Assembly: GCA_038045705.1 (NCBI GenBank)
Contig: JBBSXO010000006.1
Location: 44,506-108,505, forward strand
Source of the DNA: Nanobdellota archaeon
GTDB taxonomy: Archaea > Nanobdellota > Nanobdellia > Pacearchaeales > GW2011-AR1
DNA length: 64,000 nt
Reading direction: 5' to 3'
Notes under the pieces: model-generated
The model's database searches: none
What the model was told of the DNA's origin: nothing
The model's input: the letters and a program-made list of their open reading frames with translations, nothing else
In this document: positions 23,283 to 38,982 of the stretch, in pieces
Layout: every line of letters begins with the position of its first letter
How positions within the stretch are numbered: the stretch's first letter is position 1
Program-made: the position numbers and the translations under genes

Positions 23283-23498
23283 TTGCCTATAAACAATTTA
23301 GATCACAGCACAGACATGAAATTTTGCATTGTATGCGAAGCTGAAACTAAAGAAAGAGAGTTTTGCGAAAATTGTTTGACTTTCATAAAATGGAAGTACG
23401 AAAATAATTTTGAGGAACAGTTAGAAAGATTTCGTAAGCTGAAAGCCTACCTCGAAGATTGGCGTAACCAATCAACTGAAAAGGAGGTGGAAGAATGA
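23283..23498 (+). CDS. small zinc-ribbon protein
   Basis: CIVCEAETKEREFCENC (CxxC...CxxC) in a 71-aa ORF. First gene of a + strand operon with 4-nt overlaps. Confidence 0.3.
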   Translation: MPINNLDHSTDMKFCIVCEAETKEREFCENCLTFIKWKYENNFEEQLERFRKLKAYLEDWRNQSTEKEVEE

Positions 23499-23824: not shown

Positions 23825-23826
23825 TT

Positions 23827-24228
23827 ATGAAAACTAAATTAACTAAAGCAGTAGGTACTCTTGCAATAGTATTTATGATTCTATTTTTGCTGTTGCAAGA
23901 GGCAACTGCCTGCCCATCGCGTTTGAGATGCTCTAATTTTACTAATATGGATAAAAGAAATGATTGCAACTATATTTGGTCTCAAACATCAGGTGCTGAA
24001 AGACAAGAGGCAGTATGTATTTTATGGGACCAAGAGTATGGATTTCCTGGATACAACCATTCCGTTTATCCTAATGCGGAATCCAATTTTACGTTTTCTC
24101 ATAAAGAAATAGAAACAAGTAGATTTATTTTGTTTTTCAAAATAATTATATTTCTGTTATTTAATTATATCTTGTTTTCCATTCTAACTAAGACTTCATT
24201 CGTTAGAAGATGCCTTCCTGCGGGTTAG
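23827..24228 (+). CDS. secreted Cys-containing protein with C-terminal membrane anchor
   Basis: N-terminal TM/signal, six Cys in the ectodomain, C-terminal hydrophobic helix. Confidence 0.3.
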   Translation: MKTKLTKAVGTLAIVFMILFLLLQEATACPSRLRCSNFTNMDKRNDCNYIWSQTSGAERQEAVCILWDQEYGFPGYNHSVYPNAESNFTFSHKEIETSRFILFFKIIIFLLFNYILFSILTKTSFVRRCLPAG

Positions 24229-25019: not shown

Positions 25020-25777
25020 TGGCTTATGAAATACCTCAACAACTAGAATACAAAGAGAAAATAATGTTTGGGTTAAATTTTAAGCAATTAGCTTATCTTT
25101 TTATTTTTGCACCAATTCTATTTGTTATTTTTTTTAAGACTGCCTGGCATAATGCAATAAAGATATTTTTTATGTCAATTTTTGGAGGTTTAGCTATAGG
25201 GTTTATCTTTCTTGATTTAGATAAACATCTTCAAAATTGGTTTTACTGGTATAAATCAAAGAAGTTAGAGTTAGATCATAAATTAGCCTTATTCATACCA
25301 ATAAAAGAAGTAAAAGATAGTTTGGTTATAACTAGGGATAATAGGAAACTAGCAATTATCAAGATTACTCCTATTAATTTCTCAATTAAACATGAAGAGT
25401 CTAAGAATGCAATATCAATAGCATTTCAGAAATTTCTCAATGGTTTAGATTTTCCTATACAGATTATAATGAATACTGAACACCTTGATCTACGAGATTA
25501 TTTTGCAGAAGTTGAAAGAAAGATAAAAGACTCCAAACAATTTAGATATTTGTTTGAAGGTTACAAGAGACATCTAGAGTCAATAACTAAAGAAAAAGAT
25601 GTGATGAATAGGGTTTTTTATCTAGTTCTTACAGAAAGAACTGATATTAATATACAATTACAGATTTGTCAGACAAAATTATCTAATATTGGTTTAAAGA
25701 GTTTGAGACTAAAAGATAATGAATTAAAAGAATTGCTTAGAAGATTTTTCTTAGCAAGGAGAAATCATGCTAAGTAA
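25007..25777 (+). CDS. membrane protein with two N-terminal TM helices (VirB3/VirB8-like candidate)
   Basis: Two N-terminal TMs, then a soluble domain. Immediately upstream of, and overlapping, the VirB4-like ATPase gene. Confidence 0.3.
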   Translation: MEEIMAYEIPQQLEYKEKIMFGLNFKQLAYLFIFAPILFVIFFKTAWHNAIKIFFMSIFGGLAIGFIFLDLDKHLQNWFYWYKSKKLELDHKLALFIPIKEVKDSLVITRDNRKLAIIKITPINFSIKHEESKNAISIAFQKFLNGLDFPIQIIMNTEHLDLRDYFAEVERKIKDSKQFRYLFEGYKRHLESITKEKDVMNRVFYLVLTERTDINIQLQICQTKLSNIGLKSLRLKDNELKELLRRFFLARRNHAK

Positions 25778-28076
25778 AAAAGAAAGACCTAAAGAAAATA
25801 CGGAATTTTTACCTTTAAAGATAGAAAACACCCCCAGTTATCTTAAAATAACAGACGGAATAAAAGAACCAATCTTTAGTAGAACAATTTATGCTCATGG
25901 ATATCCTAGAAGTGTAGAAACTGGATTTTTGGACAAAATAATTAGCACAATGGGTAACTTTGATCTTTCTATGCACATTGAACCTTTTGATATAGAAACA
26001 ATGATGATCTTTCTAAACAAAGAACTTCAAAAACAAGGCTCTGACCTCTATACAGCTAAGGCAAAAAACATTCTTAGCCCGAGTCTTGAGATAAAGTACA
26101 AAGACACAAAAGCAGTCTTAGAAAATCTCCAAAAAGGTAAGGATAAATTGTTTAACGTAAGTCTTTACATAAATTGTAGAGCTAAATCTAAAGAAGATCT
26201 GGATCTTTTAACTAAATTAATACAAGCCGAACTTAACTCGCTACTGATAATCCCTAAAGTACCAAATTTTAGGATGGCTCAGGGTTTCCAGTCATCTTCT
26301 CCTTTAGCCATGAATAAACTTAAGCAAATAAGAAGTGTGCCTACTGAAGCATTATCTGCATTCTTTCCGTTTACTTCTTCATTTCTTCAAGCAGATAAAA
26401 CAGGAGTATGGTTAGGGCAAAATAAGAATAATATTCCCATAATAAAGGATATTTTCAATCTAAGTAACCCAAATGGTTTGTGTTTAGCTAGTTCGGGATC
26501 TGGTAAAAGCTATATGGCTAAACTCCTTATTTCACGTTATTTGCTTAATGGAACTAATGTAATGATAATTGACCCGCAAGGTGAGTACAAAGCTCTTGTA
26601 AAGCGATTTAATGGCCAATTAATCGATTTAAGCACGCACTCTGAGACAATAATTAATCCTTTAGATTTGATGGGTCATGACTATCCCGAAAAGCGTTTAG
26701 CTTTAATCGATTTGATGCATCTAATGCTTGGAGATCTTAGCGATCCACAAAAAGCTATTCTAGAAAAGGCAATAACAACATCTTATGAAGAAAGAGGAAT
26801 TTATATGAATAAAGTAGTTTCTTGGAGCAGAAAGCCTCCAATCATTGAAGATGTTCTAAATGTATTGAAGAAAGATGAAAAGAAAGCTACTCAAATAGAA
26901 AAGACTACAATAAGAAGCCTCATAAATCGTCTAGATGGTTATGTAAATGGAGTATTTTCTTTTCTTAATCAGGAAACTAAGATTAACTTTGATAATCAAT
27001 TTGTATGTTTTGATATAGGAAATCTGCCAAAACAAATCAAACCCCTAATGATGTTTATGGTTTTAGATTATATTTACATGAAAATGAAGAAAGACTTGAA
27101 TAGAAAACTCTTGGTTATCGATGAAGCTTGGGCACTTCTAAGGCAAACTCATGAAGCATCTTATGTATTTGAGATAGTAAAAACATGTCGTAAGTTCAAT
27201 CTAGCTTTATTTTTGATTAATCAAGAAGTTGAAGGTATGCTTGATTCAGAAGCGGGTAAATCTGTGTTAGCAAATAGTTCTTACACTCTCTTAATGCGTC
27301 AAAAGCCAGCCGTAATAAGAAATATTCAGAAAACATTTTTTCTAAGTGACTCAGAAGTCAACCATTTACTTACGGCTGGCGTGGGAGAAGGAATTTTGGT
27401 AATGGAGGATGATCATTCTGAAATAAAAATCATAGCTTCTCCTGAAGAACATAATATTATAACTACGAAGCCGGATGAGTTATTAACCAATCAAAAGAAA
27501 GTAAGTGAAAAAGAGCGTCTTCAGCTATTACAAGAACAATATGATTTACGGAAAGAAAAAAGAGACGAAAGACAAAAAATAGAAATAAAGATAGACAAAG
27601 ATGTAGGATGTGTTAAACTAAAAGACATATTAAAAGATGAAGTAAACTACCTCAAAAATTTAGGGTATAAGATTTACAGAAGTAAGAGCATCCTAAGCAA
27701 TAAAACAGAAAGTTATTTGATAGAACAAAAGAAAACAGAAAGCCCGCAACATATTTTTATGGTAAAAGATATTTCAGACTATTTGAAAAAGTTTACAGAT
27801 AAGGTTAGAATATATGAAACTGTGCAACCAGATATAGTTTTCGAGATAAATGAAAAGAAATATGCTATTGAAGTGGAAACAGGTAGTTTATTAAAATCAA
27901 ATAAAAAAGCATTGAAAGATAAAATAGAATTACTAAATAAAAAATATAAAGATAGATGGTTTTTTGTCGTAACTAATAGAAATATTGCATCAAAATATTC
28001 AGAATTAGGTAAAACTTATGATAAAAGATATATTAATACATTATTAAAACGCTTAATTGTAGAAAATAGCCAGTGA
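25767..28076 (+). CDS. VirB4/TrbE-like conjugative transfer ATPase with C-terminal PD-(D/E)xK nuclease-like extension
   Basis: Walker A LASSGSGKSY. Walker B LLVIDEAWALL about 205 aa later. VirB4-type LFLINQ...SYTLLMRQ motif. A C-terminal ~200 aa carries PDIVFEINEKKYAIEVETGS (D...ExE/K pattern). Confidence 0.55.
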   Translation: MLSKKERPKENTEFLPLKIENTPSYLKITDGIKEPIFSRTIYAHGYPRSVETGFLDKIISTMGNFDLSMHIEPFDIETMMIFLNKELQKQGSDLYTAKAKNILSPSLEIKYKDTKAVLENLQKGKDKLFNVSLYINCRAKSKEDLDLLTKLIQAELNSLLIIPKVPNFRMAQGFQSSSPLAMNKLKQIRSVPTEALSAFFPFTSSFLQADKTGVWLGQNKNNIPIIKDIFNLSNPNGLCLASSGSGKSYMAKLLISRYLLNGTNVMIIDPQGEYKALVKRFNGQLIDLSTHSETIINPLDLMGHDYPEKRLALIDLMHLMLGDLSDPQKAILEKAITTSYEERGIYMNKVVSWSRKPPIIEDVLNVLKKDEKKATQIEKTTIRSLINRLDGYVNGVFSFLNQETKINFDNQFVCFDIGNLPKQIKPLMMFMVLDYIYMKMKKDLNRKLLVIDEAWALLRQTHEASYVFEIVKTCRKFNLALFLINQEVEGMLDSEAGKSVLANSSYTLLMRQKPAVIRNIQKTFFLSDSEVNHLLTAGVGEGILVMEDDHSEIKIIASPEEHNIITTKPDELLTNQKKVSEKERLQLLQEQYDLRKEKRDERQKIEIKIDKDVGCVKLKDILKDEVNYLKNLGYKIYRSKSILSNKTESYLIEQKKTESPQHIFMVKDISDYLKKFTDKVRIYETVQPDIVFEINEKKYAIEVETGSLLKSNKKALKDKIELLNKKYKDRWFFVVTNRNIASKYSELGKTYDKRYINTLLKRLIVENSQ

Positions 28077-28191: not shown

Positions 28192-29760
28192 TTAAATTAC
28201 AGTAAATTCAAAAGCATCAGAAATAGAAACTACATTACCATTAGAGTCTAAAGTAACAAATGATGTATAAAAGGTAGAATTGCTTAGAGAAGGAATATTA
28301 GGTATTGCTAAGGTAACTTTAGATTGATTGATTCTCAATCTTCCAATAGAATTATATAAACCAATACTTTGGGGATTAGTTAAAGATGTTTGTAATAAAG
28401 GGGTGTTGTCTAAAGGAGTTATTCTTCCATCAGGCAGTGTAACTCCTTGGGAAATATTTGTAGACATTCCTAAAACATAATTTGCTTTAAGGTCGTAAGA
28501 TTCCTGTAATAAGAAGTTAACGCTTGATCCAACTCTTGGACTTCCAAGCATAACAATATTAGAAGGATTAAGAGATCTCTGGTATTTTACTCTTGCAGTT
28601 CTATATTGACCTTCATGCCATACTATATGTATATTTCCTTGTCTATCTGAAGCAAATTTTGGCGAATAAATTTGTCCTGCTCCCATAATAGTTGGACCAA
28701 TAATAATATTTCCAAGAGAATCTAATTGGCTAAATACTCTGCCTTGTCCAAATATACCTATACGCCCAAGAGAGTTAACTACGATTCCATCATTTCCAAC
28801 ATTTGGTAAAACTAATTTCTTATTTATTAAAAATGTACCATTGCTGTTTATTTTAGATAAATAGATACCAGAAGCATTATTATAATCAGAATTCCAAGAA
28901 AAGATAACATTATTTTGTTTATCGATTGCAATTGCTGGATAATCAGAGCCACCCATACCAATATCTAATTGAGAACCATTTATTAGTACATTTCCGAACT
29001 GATCTATGTAAGAATACTTAACATGAGCAACCCTGCTAGTAGAATTAGCAACAAACTCTTCCATCCACATCAAATAAGAAAAACCATTATTATCTGTAGC
29101 TAGCTTAATAACTAAAGGTTCGAAAATGCCTGCATTATAGACAGAATATATTGGAACTAAAAGATTACCTTGATTGTCGAACTTTCCATAGTAAACATCA
29201 TGATCTCCGCGCCAAGCGACATTTATGTTTCCGAGATTATCAACAGATAACTGCGGGTCTCCAGTTCCACTTCCAGGCAATAAAACTCCATTTACTGCAA
29301 TAGTACCATTAGCATAAAGCCGTGTATATCTAGTACCATGAAGAGTACTTCCAATCAAATCATACATCCATACAATATGAATATTATCAAATTTATCCAC
29401 AGCAATTGAAGAGAAGAATCCATAAGTGCTATTAAAATTGGTTAATTGTTGGTTACTAATAATTGTATTTCCAAATTTATCTAATTTGGTATAAAATACT
29501 TCTCCGATGATATTTGACAATTTTTGCATCCAAATAATATGCACGTTCCCTTGAGAATCTGTAGCTATAGATGGGTCTGCTGCAGTTAAAGTCAAATTAA
29601 GTAGAGAAATTAGAGATTCATTACTCCAATGTATTTGGGGTTCAATAGCTGAAGCTGGGGAAAGCAGAGGATAAGATGTAAAAAATCCTATTGCAACTAA
29701 AATAAAAATTAATGCTACCAGATTCTTATTTTTCTTCATAAAACTCCAGAAATTAATCAT
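28192..29760 (-). CDS. secreted beta-propeller-like repeat protein
   Basis: Signal/anchor, then at least six roughly 45-50-aa repeats with core D-x-x-G-N-[IV]-H-[IV]-x-W (DSQGNVHIIW, DKFDNIHIVW, DNLGNINVAW, DKQNNVIFSW, DRQGNIHIVW). Confidence 0.4.
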   Translation of the reverse strand: MINFWSFMKKNKNLVALIFILVAIGFFTSYPLLSPASAIEPQIHWSNESLISLLNLTLTAADPSIATDSQGNVHIIWMQKLSNIIGEVFYTKLDKFGNTIISNQQLTNFNSTYGFFSSIAVDKFDNIHIVWMYDLIGSTLHGTRYTRLYANGTIAVNGVLLPGSGTGDPQLSVDNLGNINVAWRGDHDVYYGKFDNQGNLLVPIYSVYNAGIFEPLVIKLATDNNGFSYLMWMEEFVANSTSRVAHVKYSYIDQFGNVLINGSQLDIGMGGSDYPAIAIDKQNNVIFSWNSDYNNASGIYLSKINSNGTFLINKKLVLPNVGNDGIVVNSLGRIGIFGQGRVFSQLDSLGNIIIGPTIMGAGQIYSPKFASDRQGNIHIVWHEGQYRTARVKYQRSLNPSNIVMLGSPRVGSSVNFLLQESYDLKANYVLGMSTNISQGVTLPDGRITPLDNTPLLQTSLTNPQSIGLYNSIGRLRINQSKVTLAIPNIPSLSNSTFYTSFVTLDSNGNVVSISDAFEFTVI

Positions 29761-29778
29761 ATTTAAAGCCTATTATCT

Positions 29779-30150
29779 TCAAGGTATTGTATAAAATCCT
29801 CTACCGTCTACATCTAAATCGCCAAAGGGATCAGGGTGGAAAGCTATTGTTCTTGTTTCCATTTCTGTGTTAATATCATCTCTTATTGCTACATCTAAGT
29901 CTGTAATTCGATTGACCGTTCCTCTAAATTGTCTTTCACACTTTCCCGCTTCTAAAATTGCTATGTAATTAGTATACCCATCTTCTGAATATATTTTATA
30001 AGCATAATCAACATCAATTATTCCATTAGCTTGGCATCTTGGGTTTATAGTTATATTAGCGCTTGGTTGTGCTTGAACTGCAATTATTGTCACTCCTATA
30101 AATAATATCATTCCTAAAAAATATAGTATTTGATTTTTCATAATGGACAA
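29779..30150 (-). CDS. small secreted protein
   Basis: Signal peptide MSIMKNQILYFLGMILFIGVTIIAVQA. Length 123 aa. Confidence 0.3.
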   Translation of the reverse strand: MSIMKNQILYFLGMILFIGVTIIAVQAQPSANITINPRCQANGIIDVDYAYKIYSEDGYTNYIAILEAGKCERQFRGTVNRITDLDVAIRDDINTEMETRTIAFHPDPFGDLDVDGRGFYTIP

Positions 30151-31826
30151 ACTCCTGCCGTGTTATCTATCCAAGACAGACCCCCGTTGTTGCAATAGAC
30201 TAACGCTTGATTAGTAGTAGGAGTTTTATTTAAAGGTACCCATGCAGTTGAGTTCCAATAAATTACACTTCGATTCACTCTAGTCCATTGGCTTTCAACA
30301 GTTAGAGATTTATTTAAGCAATTTCCACCAGTTACACAAATATCTTTTGTATTGTTTAGTGGATTCCTCAATGCAATTTTATAACTATCTAAGTATGTAG
30401 AAGCTACATTATCTTGAGCATTTAATTCTAATGTTTGTTGCGCAACATTATTTGTGAATACCCAATTACCTGTAAAAGAAGCATTACCTAAAGATAGTTG
30501 AGAATTTGCAGTATCAGTAGGTAATATGTATAATCCGTTTGCTATTCCTCCTACATTAAGAGTTCCATTTCCACCAGTCATTTTTATCAGCGGAATTCCA
30601 AATATTGATACAAGCGTTGTTGTTACATCAAATGTAGTTGCAGAAAGTGCTACACCAGCTTGTGAATCATCTAATCTTAATTTTTTTCCAAATATTCTAT
30701 CTAAAACTGTTAAATCTTGTGTAGAGAAGTTTAATCCAACGTAAGAAGAAGCATTTACAACTCCGTTAACTATAACTGATCCATTAACATGAAATTTTTC
30801 CTGAGGGTTAACAGTTCCAATGCCAACTTTTCCATCGCTTTTCCATGACATTATTCCGTTTAATTGACTTCCACTACGATTGTTGGATACATCTAGTTTC
30901 AAAAGACCAACCCCAGGATGATTAACAAATGCATAAGTCAATGGATTAAGCTCATTTATAGCTCCAGACAATAGTAAAGTTGCAGCACCATCTGCTATCT
31001 GTGAACCAGTAAATCCAGTATGGCCTCCCATTATATTAAGAGTTCCCCTTCCATTAGTGCCGTTTCCAGCAATTAATATCTGAGAACGAATATCAGTTCC
31101 CTCGTTAGTTGTAACCTTTATGCCCCCAGTAGCATTTCCATTCCATATAGTTAATATATGATCTGGAGTTGTAAGACCAATTCCTATTTTTGAACCACTT
31201 TGAAAAATAGCAGAACTATTCAAACCAGTAGTAGAATTCCATCTAGAAATATATCCAGAAATCCCTTGACCAGTTAAAGTTCCCGTAGAAGGAAGATTTG
31301 TTAATTGTGATCCGTCACCAATAAAGTATGGAGAGGTAACTCTTTCGGAAAAGTATCCTGATTTAGCGCTAACATTGTTAGTAATATTTATGTTCTTTCT
31401 ATTCTCTGAGAAAAGAAGGTTGTCGCTTTCATTAATTGCCCAAATAATATTACCTTTTATTACTCTTATAACTAAATCTCCCGTCTGAGCAATGGAAGAG
31501 TAATGCCCTGCAGCTAAAGCAAGCCCTAAGTTAGCAAGAATGCTCGTCTCGTTCTTAAAACCAAGAGCAGGAGAATTTGATTGTGCTTGCGCACCAGCTA
31601 TTGTAAGACCCTCACCAGGTCTTTGAACATTTATGCTATGATAATTTGAAGTCATATTTTCAGCTGTGAAGTTTCCGTTGCGGAAAATAATATTTCCAGC
31701 AGAAACAGATGTAATGAAGAAAGACAGAATAAGAAGAGAAATAATAGATTTTAATCCATTCCCCTTCATATACGGAAGTGTCTTCTCATATTTATATATG
31801 TTGTGTTTAAAATATGACATTTTCAT
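30138..31826 (-). CDS. secreted G/N/T-rich fibre-like protein
   Basis: N-terminal TM anchor. Low-complexity Gly/Asn/Thr/Ser-rich beta-rich sequence of 562 aa. Confidence 0.35.
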   Translation of the reverse strand: MKMSYFKHNIYKYEKTLPYMKGNGLKSIISLLILSFFITSVSAGNIIFRNGNFTAENMTSNYHSINVQRPGEGLTIAGAQAQSNSPALGFKNETSILANLGLALAAGHYSSIAQTGDLVIRVIKGNIIWAINESDNLLFSENRKNINITNNVSAKSGYFSERVTSPYFIGDGSQLTNLPSTGTLTGQGISGYISRWNSTTGLNSSAIFQSGSKIGIGLTTPDHILTIWNGNATGGIKVTTNEGTDIRSQILIAGNGTNGRGTLNIMGGHTGFTGSQIADGAATLLLSGAINELNPLTYAFVNHPGVGLLKLDVSNNRSGSQLNGIMSWKSDGKVGIGTVNPQEKFHVNGSVIVNGVVNASSYVGLNFSTQDLTVLDRIFGKKLRLDDSQAGVALSATTFDVTTTLVSIFGIPLIKMTGGNGTLNVGGIANGLYILPTDTANSQLSLGNASFTGNWVFTNNVAQQTLELNAQDNVASTYLDSYKIALRNPLNNTKDICVTGGNCLNKSLTVESQWTRVNRSVIYWNSTAWVPLNKTPTTNQALVYCNNGGLSWIDNTAGVCPL

Positions 31827-34800
31827 ATAATCCTCCAGTTAAGCAAAGATTTCCGTTAAAGTCAATGTAACTCATATTGTATCCAGTTAAATTCTGTATG
31901 AGAAAAGAATCTCTTATAGGATTACATGAACTTATCATATCTGAACAGGTTCCAGATTCTAAGCACATATTACCAGTAGTGTCAATGTAAGCTGTAGAGC
32001 TATCTGTAGAATTTCCGATAACCAAAGAACCGTTAGGTGCAACGCAGTTGCTTGATATCGAACAAGTACCTTTAAGAGCAATATTGCCCCAGTCTCCTAA
32101 CCATGCAACATTTGATGCAGTTGAGTCTTGTATTAGAAATTTATTAGTGTCATTTCTCATTGGATTAAGAGTTACAGAATTAGAGGGAGAGTAATAAGCC
32201 GAGTAAGTATTGCTTCCATTAACATCTATCGATCTGCATGAGAAAATAACTGGGTATTCTGGAGCGATGGAATTAAAGTTCCAATTTAACGTTTGACTAG
32301 CCGTATGATTTCCTATACTATGGAATGCTAAATCATAAAATGCATTTATATTATAAGTGATATTATCATTTTCAGCATCGGTAGACCCAGAACAGTTGAG
32401 ATTCATGCTATAATAAAAAGTATTTGTTGAACATGCAGCACCATTACAAAGAAGAGAAGTTGGAGTAGTTGGAGGAGTATTGTAAGTGCAGTTAAGACTA
32501 CAACTTCCAGTACCAGCAACAACACCATTACACTGACTGTCTGCTGTACATCCAGTAGCAAAACTTGAAGATCTACAAACATTGTCTCCCCTATCTTCTC
32601 CACTAGCACTAGAAGAACATTTATCTGCAAAATAAGTTAGAGCACTAGCACAGGTTGTTATATTACTGCCTGAAGAAAGTCCATCACATAATGGTTGTGC
32701 ACAAGAACATCCAGTTTCTCCACATTCAAAGACTGAAGTTACATCCTGATAACCACATACACTACTACATTCTTCTTCATAATAAGAAATTCCAGAACAC
32801 AAATTCAAATCATCTCCTGTTTGTCGTTCATCACAACTAGATATTCCTAAAGTAGTAGAAAATTCGCAATAATTTGTTTCCTGACTGTCAAAATAGCCAT
32901 TATACGGACTAAAACACCAACCATCATCACTTAAACCAACACCATCATTATCACAAAAGTTTGATTGACATTGAGCACTAGAAGTGCAAGATTGCCCATT
33001 GGATAAATCAGAAACACAACTCCAAGTATTCCAGCTACCAGATTTATTACAAAATTGATTTGAAGCACAGTCACTATTACTATAGCAATTCAAAACATAA
33101 ATGTAAGGGTTATTTGTATATGAAGGGTTAAATGGATCAAAACCAGTGGTACACCAATAAGATGAAGTGTCATCGTAACCTATAATCTCTTCAAAGTGTG
33201 CTGTTGCAGGAGCATTAGTTACATTTATCACGCCCTGATTGCCCGATAGTGGATTTCCACCACAGCCACCAGAACCACAACTACTTGGATTAATATCATA
33301 ATAAACATCTTGAGCATCAACTGCTTTCCAACCAACTTTATAATTTCCTATAGTATAGGGGTCACTATTATCAACTACTTGTCCCCAAGAAATGTTATTT
33401 ACATTACTATACACATTTATAGCAACAGTTACATCACAATTTCCAAAACTATTAGTTGTACAATATTCATAACCTGGCTCCGTACATGTAGAATTTCCAC
33501 CACCAGCGCCACTACAAGAAGCATCATTAACACATCTTGTCTGCGCATTACAACCTGAAGGAGTACAAGTTCTTGTTTCTAATCTTTGACCCTCTCCACA
33601 TCCCCCTCCACCACAAGAACCAGAAACCCAGTTACTACATTGACAACTTGAACTAAGAACACTAACCCATATAGGATTTGTATAAGTTCTATAAGTTCCC
33701 CCAGATCCAATGCATTCAGCCCTAAAATATGTATCTCCAGGATTTGCAAGAGCTAGATTGGGCAAAGTAATGGGGCTTGAACTGCCACTGATATTAACGG
33801 GTCCATAATGAGTCAATTCAAGATTACTCCCAATTGTTGATTTGTAAACTCTAAGAGTACATGAATGATCTAAATCATAAGTTATCCTCATATTCAAAAT
33901 ATCATTGGTATTTGCACTAACTTCTCCACCCATTTGAGTCCATGTTGATTGAGAATTCTTTTTTGCTTCTATTATAACATATCCATTATTAGACACAACA
34001 TTCGTTCCAGCAGCTAAAGCAGATTGAATATTAGAATGGGTGATGGTGGAAGCTGGAACATAGTTATAATTTATGTCAGAAACATGTCCATGTTCATCGG
34101 TGCCCCCATATGCATAAACGCGCTCATCTTGTTGCAAGAGATTATACCATGCATTAAAATTATCAGCATCATCATCAAGGCTATCAGAAGTGAAATTTCC
34201 ATTCCAAATTTCAACCCCATCATATCCCGAAACAGAATATATTGATTCAAAATCAAGAAAAGTAGTGGTGCTGGATGAAGGATGAGGGTGATTAAGAATG
34301 GAGATACCACCTTGGCTAGCAATAGAATTAACTCCGCTTTGAGCAGATGGGCCCGAAGGGCAATGAACTGCAGAAGGTGTTTGAGATATCAAACTGCTTA
34401 GCCCATATCCTCCAATATGAGCCTCTCCTGGACCAGTTGAACCAGTATAACAACTAAAAAGATTTTCATTATCCCCAGAAATATCCTGAGTGCTTAATTC
34501 TTCTCCCATAAGACAAGTAAATGTACTATTTCGGGCATTCACACAATCATTTCTTACTGTACCAAACTCACCAGCATCAATACAATAACTGTGATCTGAA
34601 AATCCAAGATAATCTAGTCCTAAATTTGCAGCTTCATCTGCTAATTCTTGAACTTCATAACCTATCAAATGTCCTTCAAGACCTATGGGGAGGCAGTTAT
34701 CTGAATTTGTAAATGGATTGCTATCATATCCACCCACTGTGCTAAATCCAGTATGTTGATGTAGACTCCCTTTATAAAAATTAATTGCCAAACCATCCTC

Positions 34801-34857
34801 AGAAAACAAGATCACTGTAAGAATAATAAAAATAAAGACGACATAATTTATCTTCAT
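31807..34857 (-). CDS. secreted PHP-domain phosphoesterase fused to a ~700-aa Cys-rich extracellular region
   Basis: Signal peptide. PHP motifs SLHQHTGFS, LGFSDHS, GEELS and ILNHPHP in the first ~200 aa. Over 60 Cys in CxxC/CxC arrays thereafter. Length 1016 aa. Confidence 0.45.
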   Translation of the reverse strand: MKINYVVFIFIILTVILFSEDGLAINFYKGSLHQHTGFSTVGGYDSNPFTNSDNCLPIGLEGHLIGYEVQELADEAANLGLDYLGFSDHSYCIDAGEFGTVRNDCVNARNSTFTCLMGEELSTQDISGDNENLFSCYTGSTGPGEAHIGGYGLSSLISQTPSAVHCPSGPSAQSGVNSIASQGGISILNHPHPSSSTTTFLDFESIYSVSGYDGVEIWNGNFTSDSLDDDADNFNAWYNLLQQDERVYAYGGTDEHGHVSDINYNYVPASTITHSNIQSALAAGTNVVSNNGYVIIEAKKNSQSTWTQMGGEVSANTNDILNMRITYDLDHSCTLRVYKSTIGSNLELTHYGPVNISGSSSPITLPNLALANPGDTYFRAECIGSGGTYRTYTNPIWVSVLSSSCQCSNWVSGSCGGGGCGEGQRLETRTCTPSGCNAQTRCVNDASCSGAGGGNSTCTEPGYEYCTTNSFGNCDVTVAINVYSNVNNISWGQVVDNSDPYTIGNYKVGWKAVDAQDVYYDINPSSCGSGGCGGNPLSGNQGVINVTNAPATAHFEEIIGYDDTSSYWCTTGFDPFNPSYTNNPYIYVLNCYSNSDCASNQFCNKSGSWNTWSCVSDLSNGQSCTSSAQCQSNFCDNDGVGLSDDGWCFSPYNGYFDSQETNYCEFSTTLGISSCDERQTGDDLNLCSGISYYEEECSSVCGYQDVTSVFECGETGCSCAQPLCDGLSSGSNITTCASALTYFADKCSSSASGEDRGDNVCRSSSFATGCTADSQCNGVVAGTGSCSLNCTYNTPPTTPTSLLCNGAACSTNTFYYSMNLNCSGSTDAENDNITYNINAFYDLAFHSIGNHTASQTLNWNFNSIAPEYPVIFSCRSIDVNGSNTYSAYYSPSNSVTLNPMRNDTNKFLIQDSTASNVAWLGDWGNIALKGTCSISSNCVAPNGSLVIGNSTDSSTAYIDTTGNMCLESGTCSDMISSCNPIRDSFLIQNLTGYNMSYIDFNGNLCLTGGLYENVIF

Positions 34858-35303
34858 TTCCTATCCTCATAAATCTTCCAAATTAAGGCTAGCGCCGAAA
34901 AAATTAATAAAGAAATCCCTACAAAATAAGCCATCCTGAGATTAGAACTTGCTTCAAGCAAAAATCTCGAAAAATTGGAATTCAAAGCAACTCCTATGGG
35001 CCAAAATGAAGTAGCAATTACACTGATTAAAATAAGTTCTTTACTTTCATCTTTAGCTCTTTTTAATAAAATTAAGAGTATCCATGGAAGAATCAACCAA
35101 AATATCAAATTTACTATTAATACTTCTGGAATAATAATTAAAGATTCACCACCTCTAGTTCCAAAAACTGTTTGAGAAATTAGAGTTGCAATTAATCCTG
35201 GAATGAATGTCACTAAAATCACTAAATCGCTCTTTGAAAATAAAAATCCTGCTAAAATAAAAATAAATGCACAGCACAAAACCAGATAAATTTTATTCTT
35301 CAT
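34854..35303 (-). CDS. membrane protein, hypothetical
   Basis: 149 aa, four TM helices, co-transcribed with the surface proteins. Confidence 0.3.
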   Translation of the reverse strand: MKNKIYLVLCCAFIFILAGFLFSKSDLVILVTFIPGLIATLISQTVFGTRGGESLIIIPEVLIVNLIFWLILPWILLILLKRAKDESKELILISVIATSFWPIGVALNSNFSRFLLEASSNLRMAYFVGISLLIFSALALIWKIYEDRK

Positions 35304-35306
35304 TTA

Positions 35307-36977
35307 TCAAATAACCTCCATTATGTGTTCTGTAGAGATTTGACGTTCCTCTCCCAAGTAGTTGTAATCTAAAGTTATATTTATCCACTCATCATTTCCA
35401 ACAGTGAAATCCCCATAGAATATTTCCTCATATCTTATCCTTATTTTTTCCACATAAACGTTTAGGGTAGGTTCAGTAAGATTAAACTCAAATCCTTGTT
35501 CGATAGATAAATCTTTATTGAAGTAGAGACTTCCGTTTGAAATGTAGATGCTTAAATTTCCTAGCTCAATAACATCATTAAGGTAAATGCTATGGCTAAC
35601 AACAATAGTTCTATTATGATCAACATGATTAACAGTGTAACTGGATATATCATGCTCTAAGGACACATTAATACCAACTGCAATTGTTCTATTTTCACTC
35701 CAAGTTCCTTGAGAACTATTGTCGTAAGCCAAGAAAGAGTATGTATAGTTTCCTTCCGAGATGTTAGCTAAAACAAATGTCGTAAAATTAGTTGCTCCAG
35801 TTAAAATTACAGTTTCTTCTAATTGCCAACTACCTCCAGTATTAGAATATAAAGAGATATTGGTCAAAACATAATCATCTGTAACATTCGGAGTCAAAAA
35901 TAAATAACCATCCCCATCTAAATAGTTATCTTCTGGAGAGAGAGTAATATATCTTGGAGCAGTGTCTCCTTGTTCTGTAACCGTTAATAGGATCTCACTA
36001 TCACCTACACCATTATCAGAGTCATATACATAGAATGTAATATATTCTGAACCGTACCAGTTAGTTTCCGAAGTTAAGGTTACTATTCCAGAGGTTTCAT
36101 CTACTTCTGCAGATATGTGGTCTGAAGAACTAGCATTATAAGTTAGCTCATCGCTGTCAGAATCTGAAGAGTACTCACTAAGATTAACTACTTTCAATGA
36201 ATCTTCGCCCCAAGTTTGTGAAGACAGTTCAGAAAATACAGGAAGAGGATTTTGAACTGCTATAGTTCTATTTACCGTAGACCATGCAGAGTTAGGAGAA
36301 GAAGCAAAATCATAGCAGATAATATTCCATTTAAATGTAAGATCATTAGGGACATTATTTAACTCAAAAGTCTGTGAAATATTTTTAATAACAAAATAAT
36401 TAGTCTGATTCGCAGCCCAAGTTCCACTCATATTGGTATAAAGACTACAATTTACTATCCACCCATCGTCATCAACACTATAATTTAATTGTAATGTTCT
36501 ATCAGTTGAATTAAATCCATTGGACGGACCTTCAATGTTCACCACAGGGGGAGTGGTGTCATTGAACACGTCAAAAACTCTTGCTTCAGACTGGCTAATA
36601 TTTCCATCCGACCAAGAACAATTAACACTCCAACTATATTCATCATTTTGAAGATTATTTAGATAAAAATAATTTGTTGAGGAACTACTAATATTAATTT
36701 CAGTTTGATTTATTATACCATCAAAAATAAAGCTACAATTATCCATAGTATAAGAAGAATTAGTAATTATATAAGAAAATGCTACATTTCCATCAAATTC
36801 TACAGATCCATTTTCAGGAGTTTGAAGTTCAACAATATAACCATAACCACCACTAGTACCTTGAGCACTAACAAAAAAGAAAAACAAAAAGACTAATACT
36901 AATAAAATAGAAAAAGTGGAAAAAATCATAAAATATTGATTAATTATATTGAACCTTTTAAGATTTCCTTTCACCAT
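35307..36977 (-). CDS. secreted N/S/T-rich surface protein (probable Ig/fibronectin-like repeats)
   Basis: N-terminal TM/signal FSTFSILLVLVFLFFFFVSAQG. 556 aa with many NxS/T sequons. Confidence 0.35.
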   Translation of the reverse strand: MVKGNLKRFNIINQYFMIFSTFSILLVLVFLFFFFVSAQGTSGGYGYIVELQTPENGSVEFDGNVAFSYIITNSSYTMDNCSFIFDGIINQTEINISSSSTNYFYLNNLQNDEYSWSVNCSWSDGNISQSEARVFDVFNDTTPPVVNIEGPSNGFNSTDRTLQLNYSVDDDGWIVNCSLYTNMSGTWAANQTNYFVIKNISQTFELNNVPNDLTFKWNIICYDFASSPNSAWSTVNRTIAVQNPLPVFSELSSQTWGEDSLKVVNLSEYSSDSDSDELTYNASSSDHISAEVDETSGIVTLTSETNWYGSEYITFYVYDSDNGVGDSEILLTVTEQGDTAPRYITLSPEDNYLDGDGYLFLTPNVTDDYVLTNISLYSNTGGSWQLEETVILTGATNFTTFVLANISEGNYTYSFLAYDNSSQGTWSENRTIAVGINVSLEHDISSYTVNHVDHNRTIVVSHSIYLNDVIELGNLSIYISNGSLYFNKDLSIEQGFEFNLTEPTLNVYVEKIRIRYEEIFYGDFTVGNDEWINITLDYNYLGEERQISTEHIMEVI

Positions 36978-37472
36978 TTATTTTATGATTGAGAATTCTG
37001 CCGAAGAAATAGAATCTGCATCAGCAGTTATACCCTTCAACTCAACTGTAATATCCTCCTTACCATCTTTATCTAGATCTATCTCATAAGTATTTCCTTC
37101 ATCTAAAATGAAAGAAAGAGCTATTTGCTCATCGTCAACATAATTGTTTAGACCATCTTCTAAGTCTAAAATTATGAAAGTTGGACCTTCTTTTCTCACT
37201 CCTTTATACTGAAGCCCATACCAATTACCATTAAATTCAAACTTTAACCTTCCAGGCTTCATATTGAAAGAATTGTCCTGTCCCAAAATAATCTCTGAAA
37301 CTGGAACGGCTGCACCACCAAACCCGGAATTAGATAATTCAGGCATAACAGCAACAATATCTAGTTCTTCACCTGAAGAGTTTACTGAATTCAGAAAGAT
37401 AAATATAACCAAGAAAAAGAGAAGACTGAAAAAAAGTACAAATGACTTAATTTTCATAAAACTCACTAGCAA
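36978..37472 (-). CDS. small secreted protein
   Basis: Signal peptide, 164 aa, first gene of the minus-strand surface-protein cluster. Confidence 0.3.
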   Translation of the reverse strand: MLVSFMKIKSFVLFFSLLFFLVIFIFLNSVNSSGEELDIVAVMPELSNSGFGGAAVPVSEIILGQDNSFNMKPGRLKFEFNGNWYGLQYKGVRKEGPTFIILDLEDGLNNYVDDEQIALSFILDEGNTYEIDLDKDGKEDITVELKGITADADSISSAEFSIIK

Positions 37473-37561: not shown

Positions 37562-38485
37562 ATGAACTTAAGTAAATATCTCTTAATGCTATTTTTAGTA
37601 AGCATTATTTCAATTCTAGTTCTTACATTAAAGCAATCACCCATCATTCAAGAGTATGCAGATTCACCATTTTGTGGAAATAATATATGCGAAAGAAATG
37701 AAGAAATATACTGCCTTGATTGTAACTTAAGTTGTAAATCTGAATTATGTAACTCAAAAATTAACGTCTTATGTGATAATTGCAGTGTTGAAAGCGAGTT
37801 AATTCAGGAATTGTTTGATCATCAAATTATAATATATAATTGCCTTTCAAATTATTATGGTTATAACCCTTCTAGATTGGTTTACCACACTGTAAAGAAT
37901 GCTGATGAAACAGGAGAAGTATGTAATGGGGATGATGGGTGTTATGTTGGAGGAGGAAATTTTGGAGAGAAAGAAGGAATAATCCAAGAACAGATACCTG
38001 GATTGGTGAATTTTGGGAACTTCAGGGTAAAAAATAAAGAAGATGTAGGTTTTGAAGTTCATGAATTATCTCACGCATTTACTTATTATGGACTTGGAAG
38101 AATACCTTCATGGTTAAACGAAGGAATTGCCATTTACTCAGAAAGCAAATTAAGTTGCGATAGTGAGATTAGAGAAGATGAAATTATAGAAATCTACGAG
38201 TTATATAATAATCAAACTATTACAATACCAGCTAATGAATATGAAAGAACAAAAAATAGCCCTCATGTAGTTGGATCAAGATATTTAGGTTATCTTGAGG
38301 ATGTATATGGATGTGATAAAGAGTGTGTTTCTAAAATAATTCACTCATTATATTCATATAGACAAAACCATACTAAGTATGACTTAAGAAAGCAAGTAAT
38401 AACTAATAAAATAATAAAGGAAAAGTCAGAAGAAGTAATTGGTAGAGATTTAACTAAAATATTTGACATATTGGAAATAAATTGA
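37562..38485 (+). CDS. secreted zinc metalloprotease (HExxH; Peptidase_MA_2-like) with N-terminal Cys-rich module
   Basis: Signal/anchor. Cys-rich CGNNICERNEEIYCLDCNLSCKSELCNS...CDNCS. Then VHELSHAFTYYG...WLNEGIAIY (HExxH plus a downstream NEG/Glu). Confidence 0.5.
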   Translation: MNLSKYLLMLFLVSIISILVLTLKQSPIIQEYADSPFCGNNICERNEEIYCLDCNLSCKSELCNSKINVLCDNCSVESELIQELFDHQIIIYNCLSNYYGYNPSRLVYHTVKNADETGEVCNGDDGCYVGGGNFGEKEGIIQEQIPGLVNFGNFRVKNKEDVGFEVHELSHAFTYYGLGRIPSWLNEGIAIYSESKLSCDSEIREDEIIEIYELYNNQTITIPANEYERTKNSPHVVGSRYLGYLEDVYGCDKECVSKIIHSLYSYRQNHTKYDLRKQVITNKIIKEKSEEVIGRDLTKIFDILEIN

Positions 38486-38535
38486 TGATTTTGTTTTTTA
38501 GCAAGGTTTATAACTCAAAATAAGCGACCCTTATT

Positions 38536-38982
38536 ATGAAAATTAAAGTATTATTCTATATCTCTTTATTAGTGATAGCTTCTTTATTTTTGATCCAGAA
38601 TAGCTCAGCTAGCCCAGTGCCTAACGCTATTATGCCAGATTTAGTATTTACAAATATAACTTATAAGATCTCTTTTATTAATACAACTAATTCTGTAACC
38701 TATTGGGATGTAAGAGTTATAGGGACATTAACAAATAACGGGTCAATCTTCGCTACTTCTTCTACTAGCTCGAGTGGATTATCAAGAGTTGGAAGCACTT
38801 CTGGCTACGGGCAAGCTATTCCAACGCCTTCAATAATGCCTAGGGTAAGCACAAAAGTTAGATGGAATTTTGTAGGATATACTGGGCAATATTCTATGTG
38901 GTTTCATGCAGATGTTTTTAACAATGTAACTGAATTTGATGAAACTAATAATTTTATTGGCACAATTATAACTCTCCCTTAA
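38536..38982 (+). CDS. small secreted protein
   Basis: Signal peptide MKIKVLFYISLLVIASLFLIQNSSA. Length 148 aa. Confidence 0.3.
   Translation: MKIKVLFYISLLVIASLFLIQNSSASPVPNAIMPDLVFTNITYKISFINTTNSVTYWDVRVIGTLTNNGSIFATSSTSSSGLSRVGSTSGYGQAIPTPSIMPRVSTKVRWNFVGYTGQYSMWFHADVFNNVTEFDETNNFIGTIITLP

What the first reader, a model, noticed from the sequence alone, without database searches (positions are those of the whole stretch)
28192..37472. Cluster of six consecutive secreted surface proteins, including a PHP-phosphoesterase/Cys-rich giant
All are minus-strand with overlapping stops and starts, and all have N-terminal signal or anchor sequences. The set comprises a 522-aa protein with six or more D-x-x-G-N-[IV]-H-[IV]-x-W propeller-like repeats, a 562-aa G/N/T-rich fibre-like protein, a 556-aa N/S/T-rich protein, and a 1016-aa secreted protein. 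The 1016-aa protein has an N-terminal PHP-type metal-dependent phosphoesterase domain (HQHTGFS, FSDHS, NHPHP) fused to a ~700-aa region with more than 60 Cys. A secreted PHP domain on a Cys-rich stalk is unusual. Candidate roles are host or partner-cell attachment, degradation of extracellular nucleic acids or phosphoesters, or an adhesin of the transfer apparatus.
Basis: partly seen in the sequence, partly recalled or inferred. Interest (0 to 1): 0.6.

Follow-up and report, generated by a model that had tools for sequence, protein, structure and literature searches.

The report
DPANN surface-protein operon beside minimal T4SS
A tiny symbiotic-type archaeon (Nanoarchaeota/DPANN) carries a seven-gene operon for exported surface proteins, including a real metal-dependent PHP phosphoesterase on a cysteine-rich stalk and a seven-bladed propeller, next to a stripped-down type IV secretion system; it is most likely cell-contact equipment with swappable 'heads'.

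Summary

The organism is a DPANN archaeon (Nanoarchaeota; Woese-/Pacearchaeota relatives). Related contigs share an operon grammar: small multi-TM protein, 'head' protein with a conserved 115-aa C-terminal module, fibre, ~120-aa protein, ~520-aa propeller. The head varies: PHP plus Cys-rich region, PHP plus beta-helix, CARDB, or another type.

In about half of the independent lineages the operon converges on a minimal type IV secretion module (VirB2 pilin, VirB6-like, VirB3-like, VirB4) with no relaxase or coupling protein found. I read it as a modular host- or partner-contact surface apparatus. It probably works with that secretion system, and the PHP head is probably an extracellular phosphodiesterase. 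Substrate and the T4SS link are inferred. Verdict: new variant of a known kind, moderate interest.

The parts
36978..37472 (-). First gene of the operon: 164-aa exported protein (TTG start), function unknown
   Evidence: ORF. N-terminal hydrophobic segment. Homologues at 35% identity in L005/L006/L013 and 52% in L035, in the same position ahead of the 556-aa homologue.
35307..36977 (-). 556-aa exported protein with Ig/cadherin-like (Big_9) domains, rich in glycosylation sequons. It is the most constant neighbour of the PHP protein.
   Evidence: Pfam Big_9 1.5e-4 and Cadherin_5 1.8e-4, both just below cut-off; NCBIfam tandem-95 repeat 1.6e-6. 30 N-x-S/T sequons, z=6.8 against shuffles. Co-occurs with the PHP protein in L002-4, L005/6/13, L007/8, L010/15, L012, L014, L016, L019 and L035.
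34854..35303 (-). 149-aa polytopic membrane protein (about 4 TM). Its stop overlaps the start of the PHP gene by 4 nt.
   Evidence: Hydrophobicity scan. 59% identical homologue in L035. Positional analogues of 104-196 aa precede the head gene in L002, L005, L007, L012, L028 and L031. In P0006 a multi-TM N-terminus is fused in frame to the PHP protein.
31807..34857 (-). 1016-aa 'head' protein: signal peptide, PHP phosphoesterase, Ig-like sandwich, Cys-rich region, Ig/FN3-like domain, conserved C-terminal module
34003..34782 (-). PHP barrel, residues ~26-285. Invariant H33, H35, D88, H89, E120, H147, H190, D254, H256; D45 nearly invariant.
33652..34002 (-). Ig-like beta-sandwich packed after the PHP barrel, residues ~286-402. 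Ends in the invariant Y-x-R...C...R-x-x-x-N-P-x-W motif.
32458..33651 (-). Cys-rich region, residues ~403-800 (39 Cys). No family assignment. Shared with P0001-P0003 and P0007-P0009 and replaced by a beta-helix in L002/L010.
   Evidence: Cys positions. Segment-wise Pfam scan gives only a sub-threshold Dickkopf_N hit, 1.9e-4 at 22.1 bits against a cut-off of 25. Homologue architectures.
31810..32175 (-). Conserved C-terminal module, residues ~895-1016: three ~35-aa repeats 'F-x-I-x-N...V-A-x-I-D-x-x-G-N-L-x-L-x-G' with 6 Cys. It is shared by heads of unrelated type.
   Evidence: 65% identity to the C-terminus of the PHP-less 755-aa protein of L027, 43% over 304 aa to the 572-aa CARDB protein of L028, 79% to L030 and 55% to L002. 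Alignment A4. Fold unresolved: hhalign against the propeller gives probability 0.2, and there are only weak NHL/WD/lectin-like PDB hits at E~0.05.
30138..31826 (-). 562-aa G/N/T-rich fibre-like protein with a long basic N-terminus plus a TM segment (possible signal anchor). The ends are conserved and the middle is variable.
   Evidence: Composition and TM segment. 21 sequons, z=3.7. Residues 1-51 are 51-65% identical in L028, L030 and L031. Residues 473-562 are 45% identical in L002 and 40% in L028, with no match for the middle. Weak Chlorovirus glycoprotein repeat hit (F-x-G-D-G-S-x-L-T-N-L) at 167-185.
29779..30150 (-). 123-aa exported protein (TTG start), function unknown, conserved partner of the propeller gene
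   Evidence: 54% identity in L002, 62% in L028/L034 and 54% in L030, always directly upstream of the propeller gene.
28192..29760 (-). 522-aa exported seven-bladed beta-propeller (residues ~59-396) plus C-terminal beta-sandwich (~400-522). Last gene of the operon.
25767..28076 (+). VirB4-like ATPase, 769 aa, convergent with the operon (115-nt spacer). It has a ~130-aa C-terminal extension.
   Evidence: Pfam P-loop_TraG 1e-24, DUF87, AAA_10. NCBIfam CD1110-family VirB4 at 293 bits, below the equivalog cut-off of 325. 55-77% identical orthologues in the same convergent position in L002-4, L010, L014, L027 and L028/L034.
23283..25777 (+). Rest of the minimal T4SS module: 71-aa Cys4 protein (23283-23498), TrbC/VirB2 pilin of 109 aa (23495-23824), 133-aa protein (23827-24228), 269-aa polytopic VirB6/TrbL-like protein (24210-25019), 256-aa PrgI/VirB3-like protein (25007-25777)
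   Evidence: Pfam T4SS_pilin 5.4e-13, TrbC 2.3e-8, PrgI 4.4e-6. Orthologues in L002 carry TraC-like and TrbL_3 (weak) marks. 58-85% identity to L002 and L027.
37562..38982 (+). Divergently transcribed exported proteins: 307-aa Cys-rich peptidase-MA-like protein (HExxH) and 148-aa CARDB protein. They travel with the 5' half of the operon.
   Evidence: Pfam Peptidase_MA_2 2.6e-5 (below cut-off) and CARDB 8.1e-5. Peptidase homologue at 48% identity in L005/6/13 and 64% in L035, in the same divergent position. CARDB homologue at 48% in L035.

Best explanation
**What it is.** The region is a seven-gene operon for exported and membrane proteins of a DPANN archaeon (Nanoarchaeota in the broad sense; relatives are labelled Woese- or Pacearchaeota). 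It builds a modular cell-surface contact apparatus.

**Conserved scaffold**
- A small polytopic membrane protein (149 aa).
- The 115-aa C-terminal module of the 'head' protein.
- The two ends of a fibre-like protein (562 aa).
- A 123-aa protein.
- A seven-bladed propeller (522 aa), which is probably the ligand- or glycan-binding part.

**Exchangeable head.** The N-terminal part of the head protein differs between lineages. Here it is a signal peptide, a catalytically intact PHP (CehA/McbA-type) trinuclear-metal phosphoesterase, an Ig-like domain and a ~400-aa disulfide-rich stalk. A cadherin/Big_9-type glycoprotein (556 aa) and a 164-aa protein accompany it.

**Proposed mechanism (inferred).** The apparatus holds the cell against a host or partner surface. 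The PHP head hydrolyses a phosphodiester there. Most likely the substrate is extracellular or interface nucleic acid; less likely it is a phosphodiester-linked envelope polymer or lipid head group. The apparatus cooperates with the adjacent relaxase-less VirB2/VirB3/VirB4/VirB6 secretion module, which moves macromolecules across that contact.

**Shown:** gene content, folds, conserved ligand motifs, operon grammar, head swapping, and recurrent adjacency to the T4SS.
**Inferred:** export, complex formation, substrate, and cooperation with the T4SS.
For: **Taxon.** Homologues come from Pace-, Woese- and Nanoarchaeota MAGs, and the 522-aa protein is 100% identical to a Nanoarchaeota protein.

**PHP head**
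- NCBIfam NF038032 scores above its cut-off.
- HxH, DH, E, H, H and DxH are invariant in 12 homologues at 29-55% identity.

**Export.** N-terminal signal-like segments, sequon enrichment and a low-basic composition.

**Operon grammar and head swapping**
- L002/L010: PHP plus beta-helix.
- L027: a 755-aa head without PHP.
- L028/L034 and L031: CARDB heads.
- All of these carry the same C-terminal module (43-79% identity) and are followed by fibre N-terminus, ~120-aa and ~520-aa homologues.

**T4SS adjacency.** The propeller gene converges on VirB4 in the window, L002-4/L010, L014, L027 and L028/L034. VirB4 identity is 55-77% and the surface proteins are only 35-64% identical.

**Minimal T4SS.** Pilin, PrgI-like and VirB4 pass Pfam cut-offs. 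No relaxase or coupling protein was found among the ORFs scanned in the window.

**Precedents in the literature**
- Nanohaloarchaeal giant adhesin proteins tied to VirB4 ATPases (PMC10266531).
- Relaxase-less, pilin-bearing T4SS in Patescibacteria (PMC12102498).
- A Patescibacterium with putative T4SS pili at the host interface that feeds on host RNA (bioRxiv 10.64898/2026.06.21.733656).
Against: **The T4SS link is not obligatory.**
- The same operon grammar sits among housekeeping genes in L031/L032 (tRNA-intron endonuclease, MgtE, LeuRS).
- Propeller homologues lack a VirB4 neighbour in L029, L033 and L035.
- PHP-head proteins occur without secretion genes within reach in L001, L007, L009 and L016.
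- Adjacency in five lineages could be inherited synteny rather than function.
- The two gene sets are convergent, so they are not co-transcribed.

**Nothing fixes the substrate.** The nearest characterised relatives of the domain include a carbamate hydrolase family name (CehA/McbA), an oxidative decarboxylase (PsfC, from my own recollection of the literature), nucleases and phosphatases.

**Other gaps**
- No signal-peptide predictor was available.
- No membrane anchor or sorting signal was found at any C-terminus, so retention on the cell is assumed.
- No host is known.
Confidence: 0.6

Rival explanations
1. The operon is a generic DPANN envelope, S-layer or attachment operon with no functional tie to the T4SS. 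It builds part of the cell coat or a substrate- or host-binding layer, and its position next to VirB4 in some genomes is inherited synteny.
For: The operon grammar occurs without a T4SS in L031/L032. Propeller homologues occur without VirB4 in L029, L033 and L035. The PHP+556 pair occurs without a T4SS in L001, L007 and L016. The orientation is convergent, so the two sets are not co-transcribed.
Against: Convergent adjacency with a spacer of about 100-330 nt is kept in five lineages whose VirB4 proteins have diverged to 55% identity and whose surface proteins have been partly replaced. Such retention is unusual in small, rearranging genomes. Literature precedent links DPANN giant adhesins with VirB4 (PMC10266531).
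Confidence: 0.3
2. The PHP protein is a nutrient-scavenging exoenzyme. It is a secreted or surface nuclease or phosphatase that degrades environmental DNA, RNA or organophosphates to feed an auxotrophic cell. The Cys-rich part serves only as a stabilising stalk, and the rest of the operon is incidental.
For: The PHP ligand set is intact. Structural neighbours include RNase AM, EndoQ and the PolIII/PolX PHP exonuclease domains. The protein has a signal peptide and conserved Cys pairs. DPANN generally lack nucleotide synthesis (general knowledge; see also bioRxiv 10.64898/2026.06.21.733656).
Against: In the same operon slot the PHP domain is replaced by non-enzymatic CARDB or other heads that keep the same C-terminal module. 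This argues that the slot's common role is display or binding rather than one catalytic activity. The PHP protein is almost always paired with an Ig/cadherin-like glycoprotein. No transporter for the products is encoded nearby.
Confidence: 0.3
3. The whole 21-39 kb stretch is an integrated conjugative element, and the surface proteins are its mating-pair adhesins, as PrgA/PrgB/PrgC are for pCF10.
For: tRNA-Asp (21007-21078) is followed directly by a tyrosine integrase (21162-22334) and an MT-A70 methylase, then the T4SS genes. A DNA methylase flanks the pilin side in L002, L010, L027 and L028 too. VirB4 is closest to monoderm conjugation families.
Against: No repeat of the tRNA 3' end or other att-like direct repeat was found in the window. 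No relaxase and no VirD4-type coupling protein were found. There is no composition break. No relatives were found in IMG/VR. No integrase was seen in the flanks of L002, L027 or L028. No PrgB-type domains were detected.
Confidence: 0.12

Closest known systems
PHP-superfamily metallohydrolases of the CehA/McbA type (NCBIfam NF038032); structures TM0559 (2anu) and the two-domain PHP protein 3e38
   Different: Here the domain is exported and carries conserved Cys pairs. It is the N-terminal head of a 1016-aa surface protein with a 400-aa Cys-rich region and a C-terminal docking-type module. No substrate is known either for it or for its closest structural neighbours.
Surface adhesins encoded with monoderm conjugation systems (PrgA/PrgB/PrgC of Enterococcus pCF10, MPF-FATA class)
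   Same: Large exported Ig-domain proteins are encoded next to a VirB3/VirB4/VirB6-type apparatus, and the apparatus components are related to the PrgI and CD1110-family VirB4 proteins.
   Different: There is no sequence relation to PrgB. The genes form a separate convergent operon. A VirB2 pilin is present, which monoderm bacterial systems lack (PMC12102498). No relaxase or coupling protein was found. The organism is an archaeon without murein.
Nanohaloarchaeal giant 'SPEARE' proteins with a VirB4/TraG ATPase domain (PMC10266531)
   Same: Both are DPANN. Both have giant exported Ig-rich proteins genetically tied to VirB4-type ATPases, proposed to mediate host contact and transfer.
   Different: In SPEARE the adhesin and the ATPase are one polypeptide of thousands of residues. 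Here they are separate genes, the adhesins are 500-1000 aa, and the set includes a PHP enzyme, a propeller and a VirB2 pilin.
Relaxase-less chromosomal T4SS of Patescibacteria (PMC12102498) and the archaeal Ced/Ted DNA-import systems (PMC9905601)
   Same: All have a minimal VirB2 + VirB6 + VirB4 set, are chromosomal and lack a relaxase. All occur in monoderm, often epibiotic, ultrasmall cells or in archaea.
   Different: The Patescibacteria survey detected no adhesins next to the T4SS. Ced and Ted have no comparable surface-protein operon. The DPANN module here also carries a PrgI/VirB3-like protein and a VirB4 with a C-terminal extension.

Membership tests
PHP superfamily / CehA-McbA metallohydrolase domain (NF038032) | Score at or above the curated NCBIfam cut-off over the full model | tested here: met
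   84.7 bits against a cut-off of 80; residues 27-398 match model positions 2-314 of 315. Pfam itself gives no hit.
PHP superfamily / CehA-McbA metallohydrolase domain (NF038032) | Distorted (beta/alpha)7 PHP barrel fold | tested here: met
PHP superfamily / CehA-McbA metallohydrolase domain (NF038032) | Conserved metal-ligand motifs HxH, (D)H, E, H, H, DxH | tested here: met
   H33, H35, D88, H89, E120, H147, H190, D254 and H256 are invariant in 12 homologues at 29-55% identity, and D45 is nearly invariant. The DH, E, H and DxH motifs align with those of 3e0f in a weak HMM alignment.
PHP superfamily / CehA-McbA metallohydrolase domain (NF038032) | Ligands converge on a tri-metal site in 3D, and the domain has hydrolytic activity | not testable with these tools
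Seven-bladed beta-propeller (522-aa protein) | Seven four-stranded blades closing a ring | tested here: met
Type IV secretion system (MPF-FATA-like minimal set) in the neighbouring genes | VirB4 ATPase | tested here: met
   Pfam P-loop_TraG at 87.4 bits (cut-off 25.8), DUF87 and AAA_10. NCBIfam CD1110-type VirB4 at 293 bits is below the equivalog cut-off of 325, so this is family-level membership only.
Type IV secretion system (MPF-FATA-like minimal set) in the neighbouring genes | VirB2 pilin, VirB3/PrgI-like protein and VirB6-like channel | tested here: met
   T4SS_pilin at 49.3 bits (cut-off 26.6), TrbC at 34.6 (27.9) and PrgI at 27.6 (27). VirB6 is only inferred, from polytopic topology and a weak TrbL_3 mark on the 73% identical L002 orthologue.
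Type IV secretion system (MPF-FATA-like minimal set) in the neighbouring genes | Relaxase and VirD4-type coupling protein (needed for conjugation) | tested here: not met
   Neither was found among the window ORFs scanned with Pfam. Only the larger ORFs were scanned.
T4SS-associated adhesin (PrgB-like) | Homology to PrgB/aggregation-substance domains, encoded in the T4SS operon | tested here: not met
Integrative conjugative element | Integrase at a tRNA with flanking att direct repeats | tested here: inconclusive
   tRNA-Asp plus integrase are present. No second copy of the tRNA 3' end and no convincing direct repeat were found within the window.
Nanohaloarchaeal SPEARE-type giant protein | Extracellular Ig array, TM segment and VirB4/TraG ATPase in one polypeptide | tested here: not met
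   VirB4 is a separate 769-aa protein with no extracellular part. The surface proteins have no ATPase domain.

The most novel reading that the evidence does not exclude
The conserved scaffold is the host-contact end of a DPANN T4SS-derived macromolecule-transfer machine. The scaffold comprises the small membrane protein, the C-terminal module of the head, the fibre, the 123-aa protein and the seven-bladed propeller. Its exchangeable heads set host range, much as phage receptor-binding proteins do. The PHP head is an interface nuclease or phosphodiesterase that opens the host envelope, or processes host nucleic acid for uptake through the VirB2/VirB6/VirB4 conduit. This would be an archaeal counterpart of the RNA-feeding, T4SS-pilus-bearing Patescibacteria.
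Probability: 0.2. Interest if true: 0.8.

Novelty: new variant of a known kind. Interest (0 to 1): 0.55.

Why it matters
How Woese-, Pace- and Nanoarchaeota attach to and draw on their partners is essentially unknown, and almost none of them are cultured.

This locus offers a concrete candidate for the contact machinery:
- a recurrent five-gene scaffold with swappable heads;
- repeated placement against a relaxase-less VirB2/3/4/6 system;
- an apparently active extracellular PHP phosphoesterase as one of the heads.

It yields hypotheses that can be tested without cultivation:
- recombinant PHP domain activity;
- pull-downs between the C-terminal module and the propeller, fibre or 123-aa proteins;
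- co-occurrence statistics across genomes;
- head type against predicted host.

If the T4SS link holds, the pairing of giant adhesins with VirB4 would extend from Nanohaloarchaeota to the much larger freshwater and groundwater DPANN lineages. If it does not hold, the result is still a well-defined modular surface-protein family in which a known enzyme domain has been recruited for display.

Tried and rejected
- **Pfam on the whole 1016-aa protein and on six segments of it.** Nothing above threshold. The TSP1-like look of residues 403-450 (C-x-C-x-x-W...C-G...R...C) is not supported, and the Dickkopf_N hit is sub-threshold.
- **PDB sequence search with the single protein.** Only chance nanobody hits.
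- **Is the C-terminal module a set of propeller blades related to the 522-aa protein?** hhalign probability 0.2, rejected. The PDB profile search gave only E~0.05 hits to NHL, WD and lectin repeats, so the fold is unresolved.
- **att site for an integrated element.** No second copy of the tRNA-Asp 3' end and only short chance-like direct repeats.
- **Phage or virus origin.** PHROGs gave one weak hit of unknown function for the fibre. No relatives of VirB4 or of the PHP domain were found in IMG/VR.
- **Defence system.** PADLOC found nothing for the surface proteins.
- **PD-(D/E)xK nuclease in the VirB4 C-terminal extension (my guess from 'PDIVFE...EVETG').** No support from Pfam or PDB.
- **Sequence similarity between the 149-aa membrane protein and the fused N-terminus of P0006.** None; the relation is positional only.
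- **Literature.** No paper combines DPANN with a PHP domain or Woesearchaeota with type IV secretion and conjugation.

Full report
**1. What is in the sequence**

The window is AT-rich (29-36% GC) with no composition break at the region.

*Gene layout.* Between 28192 and 37472 the minus strand carries seven ORFs, not six:
- 164 aa (36978-37472)
- 556 aa (35307-36977)
- 149 aa (34854-35303)
- 1016 aa (31807-34857)
- 562 aa (30138-31826)
- 123 aa (29779-30150)
- 522 aa (28192-29760)

The junctions are overlaps of 4, 20 and 13 nt, one abutting pair, and gaps of 3 and 18 nt. That is the layout of a single operon.

*Export signals.* Six products begin with one hydrophobic segment followed by an A-x-A-like site. 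The 149-aa product is a roughly four-pass membrane protein. No signal-peptide predictor was available, so export is a heuristic call. Three observations support it:
- N-x-S/T sequons exceed composition-matched shuffles in the 556-aa protein (30 sequons, z=6.8) and the 562-aa protein (21 sequons, z=3.7).
- All the large products are poor in Lys+Arg (2.7-6.6%) compared with cytoplasmic proteins of the window (12-17%).
- The PHP domain carries conserved Cys positions, which would be unusual in a cytoplasmic enzyme.

**2. The organism**

Homologues of the 1016-aa protein come from Candidatus Pacearchaeota, Woesearchaeota and Nanoarchaeota MAGs. The 522-aa protein is 100% identical to a protein labelled Nanoarchaeota archaeon on a 117-kb contig.

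The rest of the window is ordinary chromosome. It carries thymidylate synthase, a P-type ATPase, a Na/H exchanger, radical-SAM enzymes and a type I restriction system.

**3. The PHP claim**

Pfam gives nothing for the 1016-aa protein. NCBIfam places residues 27-398 in the CehA/McbA metallohydrolase domain family, NF038032, at 84.7 bits against a cut-off of 80.

*Conserved residues.* I aligned the domain from 12 homologues at 29-55% identity. H33, H35, D88, H89, E120, H147, H190, D254 and H256 are invariant, and D45 is nearly so. This is the HxH / DH / E / H / H / DxH pattern of the PHP superfamily; the definition of that pattern rests on my knowledge of the family.

*Structure model.* An AlphaFold2 model of residues 23-402 is confident (pLDDT 85.2, pTM 0.87).
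- Foldseek ranks 3o0f and the RNase AM PHP domain first.
- A weak profile alignment to 3e0f lines up the DH, E, H and DxH motifs.
- Residues ~286-402 form an Ig-like sandwich.

I could not measure ligand distances in the model.

*How common is it?* The domain is not rare. A profile search of 1.84 billion cluster representatives finds 3119 proteins at E<=1e-3 and 716 at E<=1e-10, mostly as one module in proteins of 400-3400 aa.

**4. The rest of the 1016-aa protein**

- Residues ~403-800 are Cys-rich and match no family.
- Residues ~801-894 are an Ig/FN3-like unit that recurs in homologues and resembles parts of the 556-aa protein.
- Residues ~895-1016 are three ~35-aa repeats with six Cys.

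This last module is the informative part. It recurs at 43-79% identity at the C-terminus of proteins whose N-terminal parts are quite different:
- PHP plus beta-helix in L002/L010;
- a 755-aa protein without PHP in L027;
- CARDB proteins in L028/L034 and L031.

Its fold is unresolved.

**5. The propeller**

**6. Surroundings**

*Downstream.* Convergent with the operon and 115 nt away lies a VirB4-type ATPase. It is preceded on the plus strand by:
- a 71-aa Cys4 protein;
- a TrbC/VirB2 pilin (PF18895, 5e-13);
- a 133-aa protein;
- a 269-aa polytopic VirB6/TrbL-like protein;
- a PrgI/VirB3-like protein.

Further left are an MT-A70 methylase, a tyrosine integrase and tRNA-Asp. No att-like repeat was found. 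No relaxase or VirD4 was detected among the ORFs scanned.

*Upstream.* Transcribed divergently are a Cys-rich peptidase-MA-like protein and a CARDB protein, both with signal-like N-termini.

**7. Comparative evidence**

*A conserved operon grammar.* Related contigs share this order: small multi-TM protein, head protein ending in the C-terminal module, fibre-like protein with conserved N-terminal 51 residues and C-terminal ~90 residues but a variable middle, ~120-aa protein, ~520-aa propeller. It is seen in:
- the window;
- L002/L003/L004 (one of them a 674-kb contig);
- L010;
- L027;
- L028/L034;
- L030;
- L031/L032.

L014 is a shorter variant in which the head is followed directly by the propeller.

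*Conservation pattern.* Against L002 and its close relatives, the secretion-system proteins are 58-79% identical to the window's. The surface proteins are 35-54% identical, or partly replaced. That pattern is expected for proteins facing a variable partner.

*Adjacency to VirB4.* The propeller gene converges on VirB4 in the window, L002-4/L010, L014, L027 and L028/L034. Across these, VirB4 identity falls to 55%, and in L028 it is fused to its PrgI-like partner. There is no such neighbour in L029, L031/32, L033 or L035.

*The PHP head and the 556-aa partner.* These two nearly always travel together. They also occur with no secretion genes within reach in L001, L007 and L016.

*Assessment.* The link to the secretion system is recurrent, in about half of the independent lineages, but it is not obligatory.

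**8. Interpretation**

What the data show is a modular surface-protein operon of DPANN archaea. It has a conserved scaffold and interchangeable heads, and one of the heads is an intact PHP phosphoesterase.

What I infer:
- The proteins form a surface complex that binds a host or partner cell.
- The propeller and the Ig/cadherin-like proteins are the binding parts.
- The PHP head cleaves a phosphodiester at that interface. I favour nucleic acid as the substrate, because the characterised structural neighbours are mostly nucleases or nucleotide phosphatases and DPANN cells need external nucleotides. This is not tested.
- The apparatus works with the neighbouring relaxase-less VirB2/3/4/6 system.

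Precedents exist in the literature:
- Nanohaloarchaeal giant adhesins carry or neighbour VirB4 ATPases (PMC10266531).
- Patescibacteria have a chromosomal, pilin-bearing, relaxase-less T4SS (PMC12102498). One cultured member shows T4SS-like pili at the host interface and feeds on host RNA (bioRxiv 10.64898/2026.06.21.733656).
- Ced and Ted are domesticated archaeal T4SS for DNA import (PMC9905601).

**9. Rivals**

- A generic envelope or attachment operon with only inherited synteny to the T4SS (probability 0.3).
- A nutrient-scavenging exoenzyme reading of the PHP protein (0.3; this overlaps the main reading on chemistry but not on context).
- An integrative conjugative element with mating adhesins (0.12). 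It is weakened by the lack of att repeats, relaxase, coupling protein and viral or mobile relatives.

**10. Novelty and score**

The enzyme domain, the propeller fold and the T4SS parts are all known kinds. In the searchable literature I found no description of the following:
- the operon grammar;
- the shared C-terminal module under different heads;
- its recurrent placement against a minimal T4SS in Woese-, Pace- and Nanoarchaeota.

I rate it a new variant of a known kind, interest 0.55.

Noticed in passing
window 27570-28076 (+), C-terminal ~130-170 residues of the VirB4 homologue: The VirB4 ATPase has a C-terminal extension beyond the ATPase core, conserved in L002, L010 and L027 (the alignment runs to residue 764). 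It contains a 'PDIVFE...EVETG...K' stretch that looks to me like a PD-(D/E)xK nuclease motif. Neither Pfam nor PDB searches support that.
   Followed up: partly
window 21007-23180: tRNA-Asp is followed at once by a tyrosine integrase (21162-22334) and an MT-A70 DNA methylase (22605-23180, minus strand), just before the T4SS genes. No att-like repeat was found in the window. A DNA methylase also flanks the pilin side of the T4SS in L002, L010, L027 and L028.
   Followed up: partly
window 23283-23498 (+) and 23827-24228 (+): Two small conserved genes of unknown role sit inside the T4SS module. One is a 71-aa protein with a CxxC...CxxC pattern directly upstream of the pilin gene (58-79% identical in L002 and L027). 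The other is a 133-aa protein with a Cys-rich exported part and a C-terminal TM segment, between the pilin and VirB6-like genes (64-66% identical).
   Followed up: no
window 33508-33651 (-), residues 403-450 of the 1016-aa protein: A ~45-residue Cys-rich unit lies directly after the PHP+Ig unit: 'C-x-C-x-x-W-x-x-G-S-C-x-x-G-x-C-G-x-x-x-R-x-x-x-R-x-C-x-P-x-x-C'. It is conserved in most homologues whatever follows it. It resembles a thrombospondin type-1 repeat by eye, but no Pfam hit supports this.
   Followed up: partly
L010 1490-5041 (protein P0006): In this relative, the multi-TM protein that normally precedes the head gene is fused in frame to the PHP protein (1183 aa). This hints that the small membrane protein and the head act together, unless it is a gene-calling artefact. 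The fused part has no sequence similarity to the window's 149-aa protein.
   Followed up: partly
window 52317-61100 (-): A type I restriction-modification system: HsdM 52317-53813, HsdS 54666-55820, HsdR 58356-61100. A HEPN-domain protein (53800-54669) lies between M and S, with several unassigned ORFs.
   Followed up: no
window 45676-46644 (+); L011 6619-7701: A DUF4238 protein (PADLOC 'DUF4238-Pers' 1.9e-7) lies about 8 kb from the operon. Another DUF4238 gene lies about 2 kb from a distant PHP-head homologue (P0015) in L011. This may be coincidence.
   Followed up: no
L035 4850-14805: The closest relatives of the 5' half of the operon are in a contig where the propeller gene lies upstream of the peptidase gene, not at the operon's 3' end. 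Identities are 164 aa 52%, 556 aa 67%, 149 aa 59%, PHP 61%, peptidase-MA 64% and CARDB 48%. This shows that the two halves of the operon can be rearranged.
   Followed up: no
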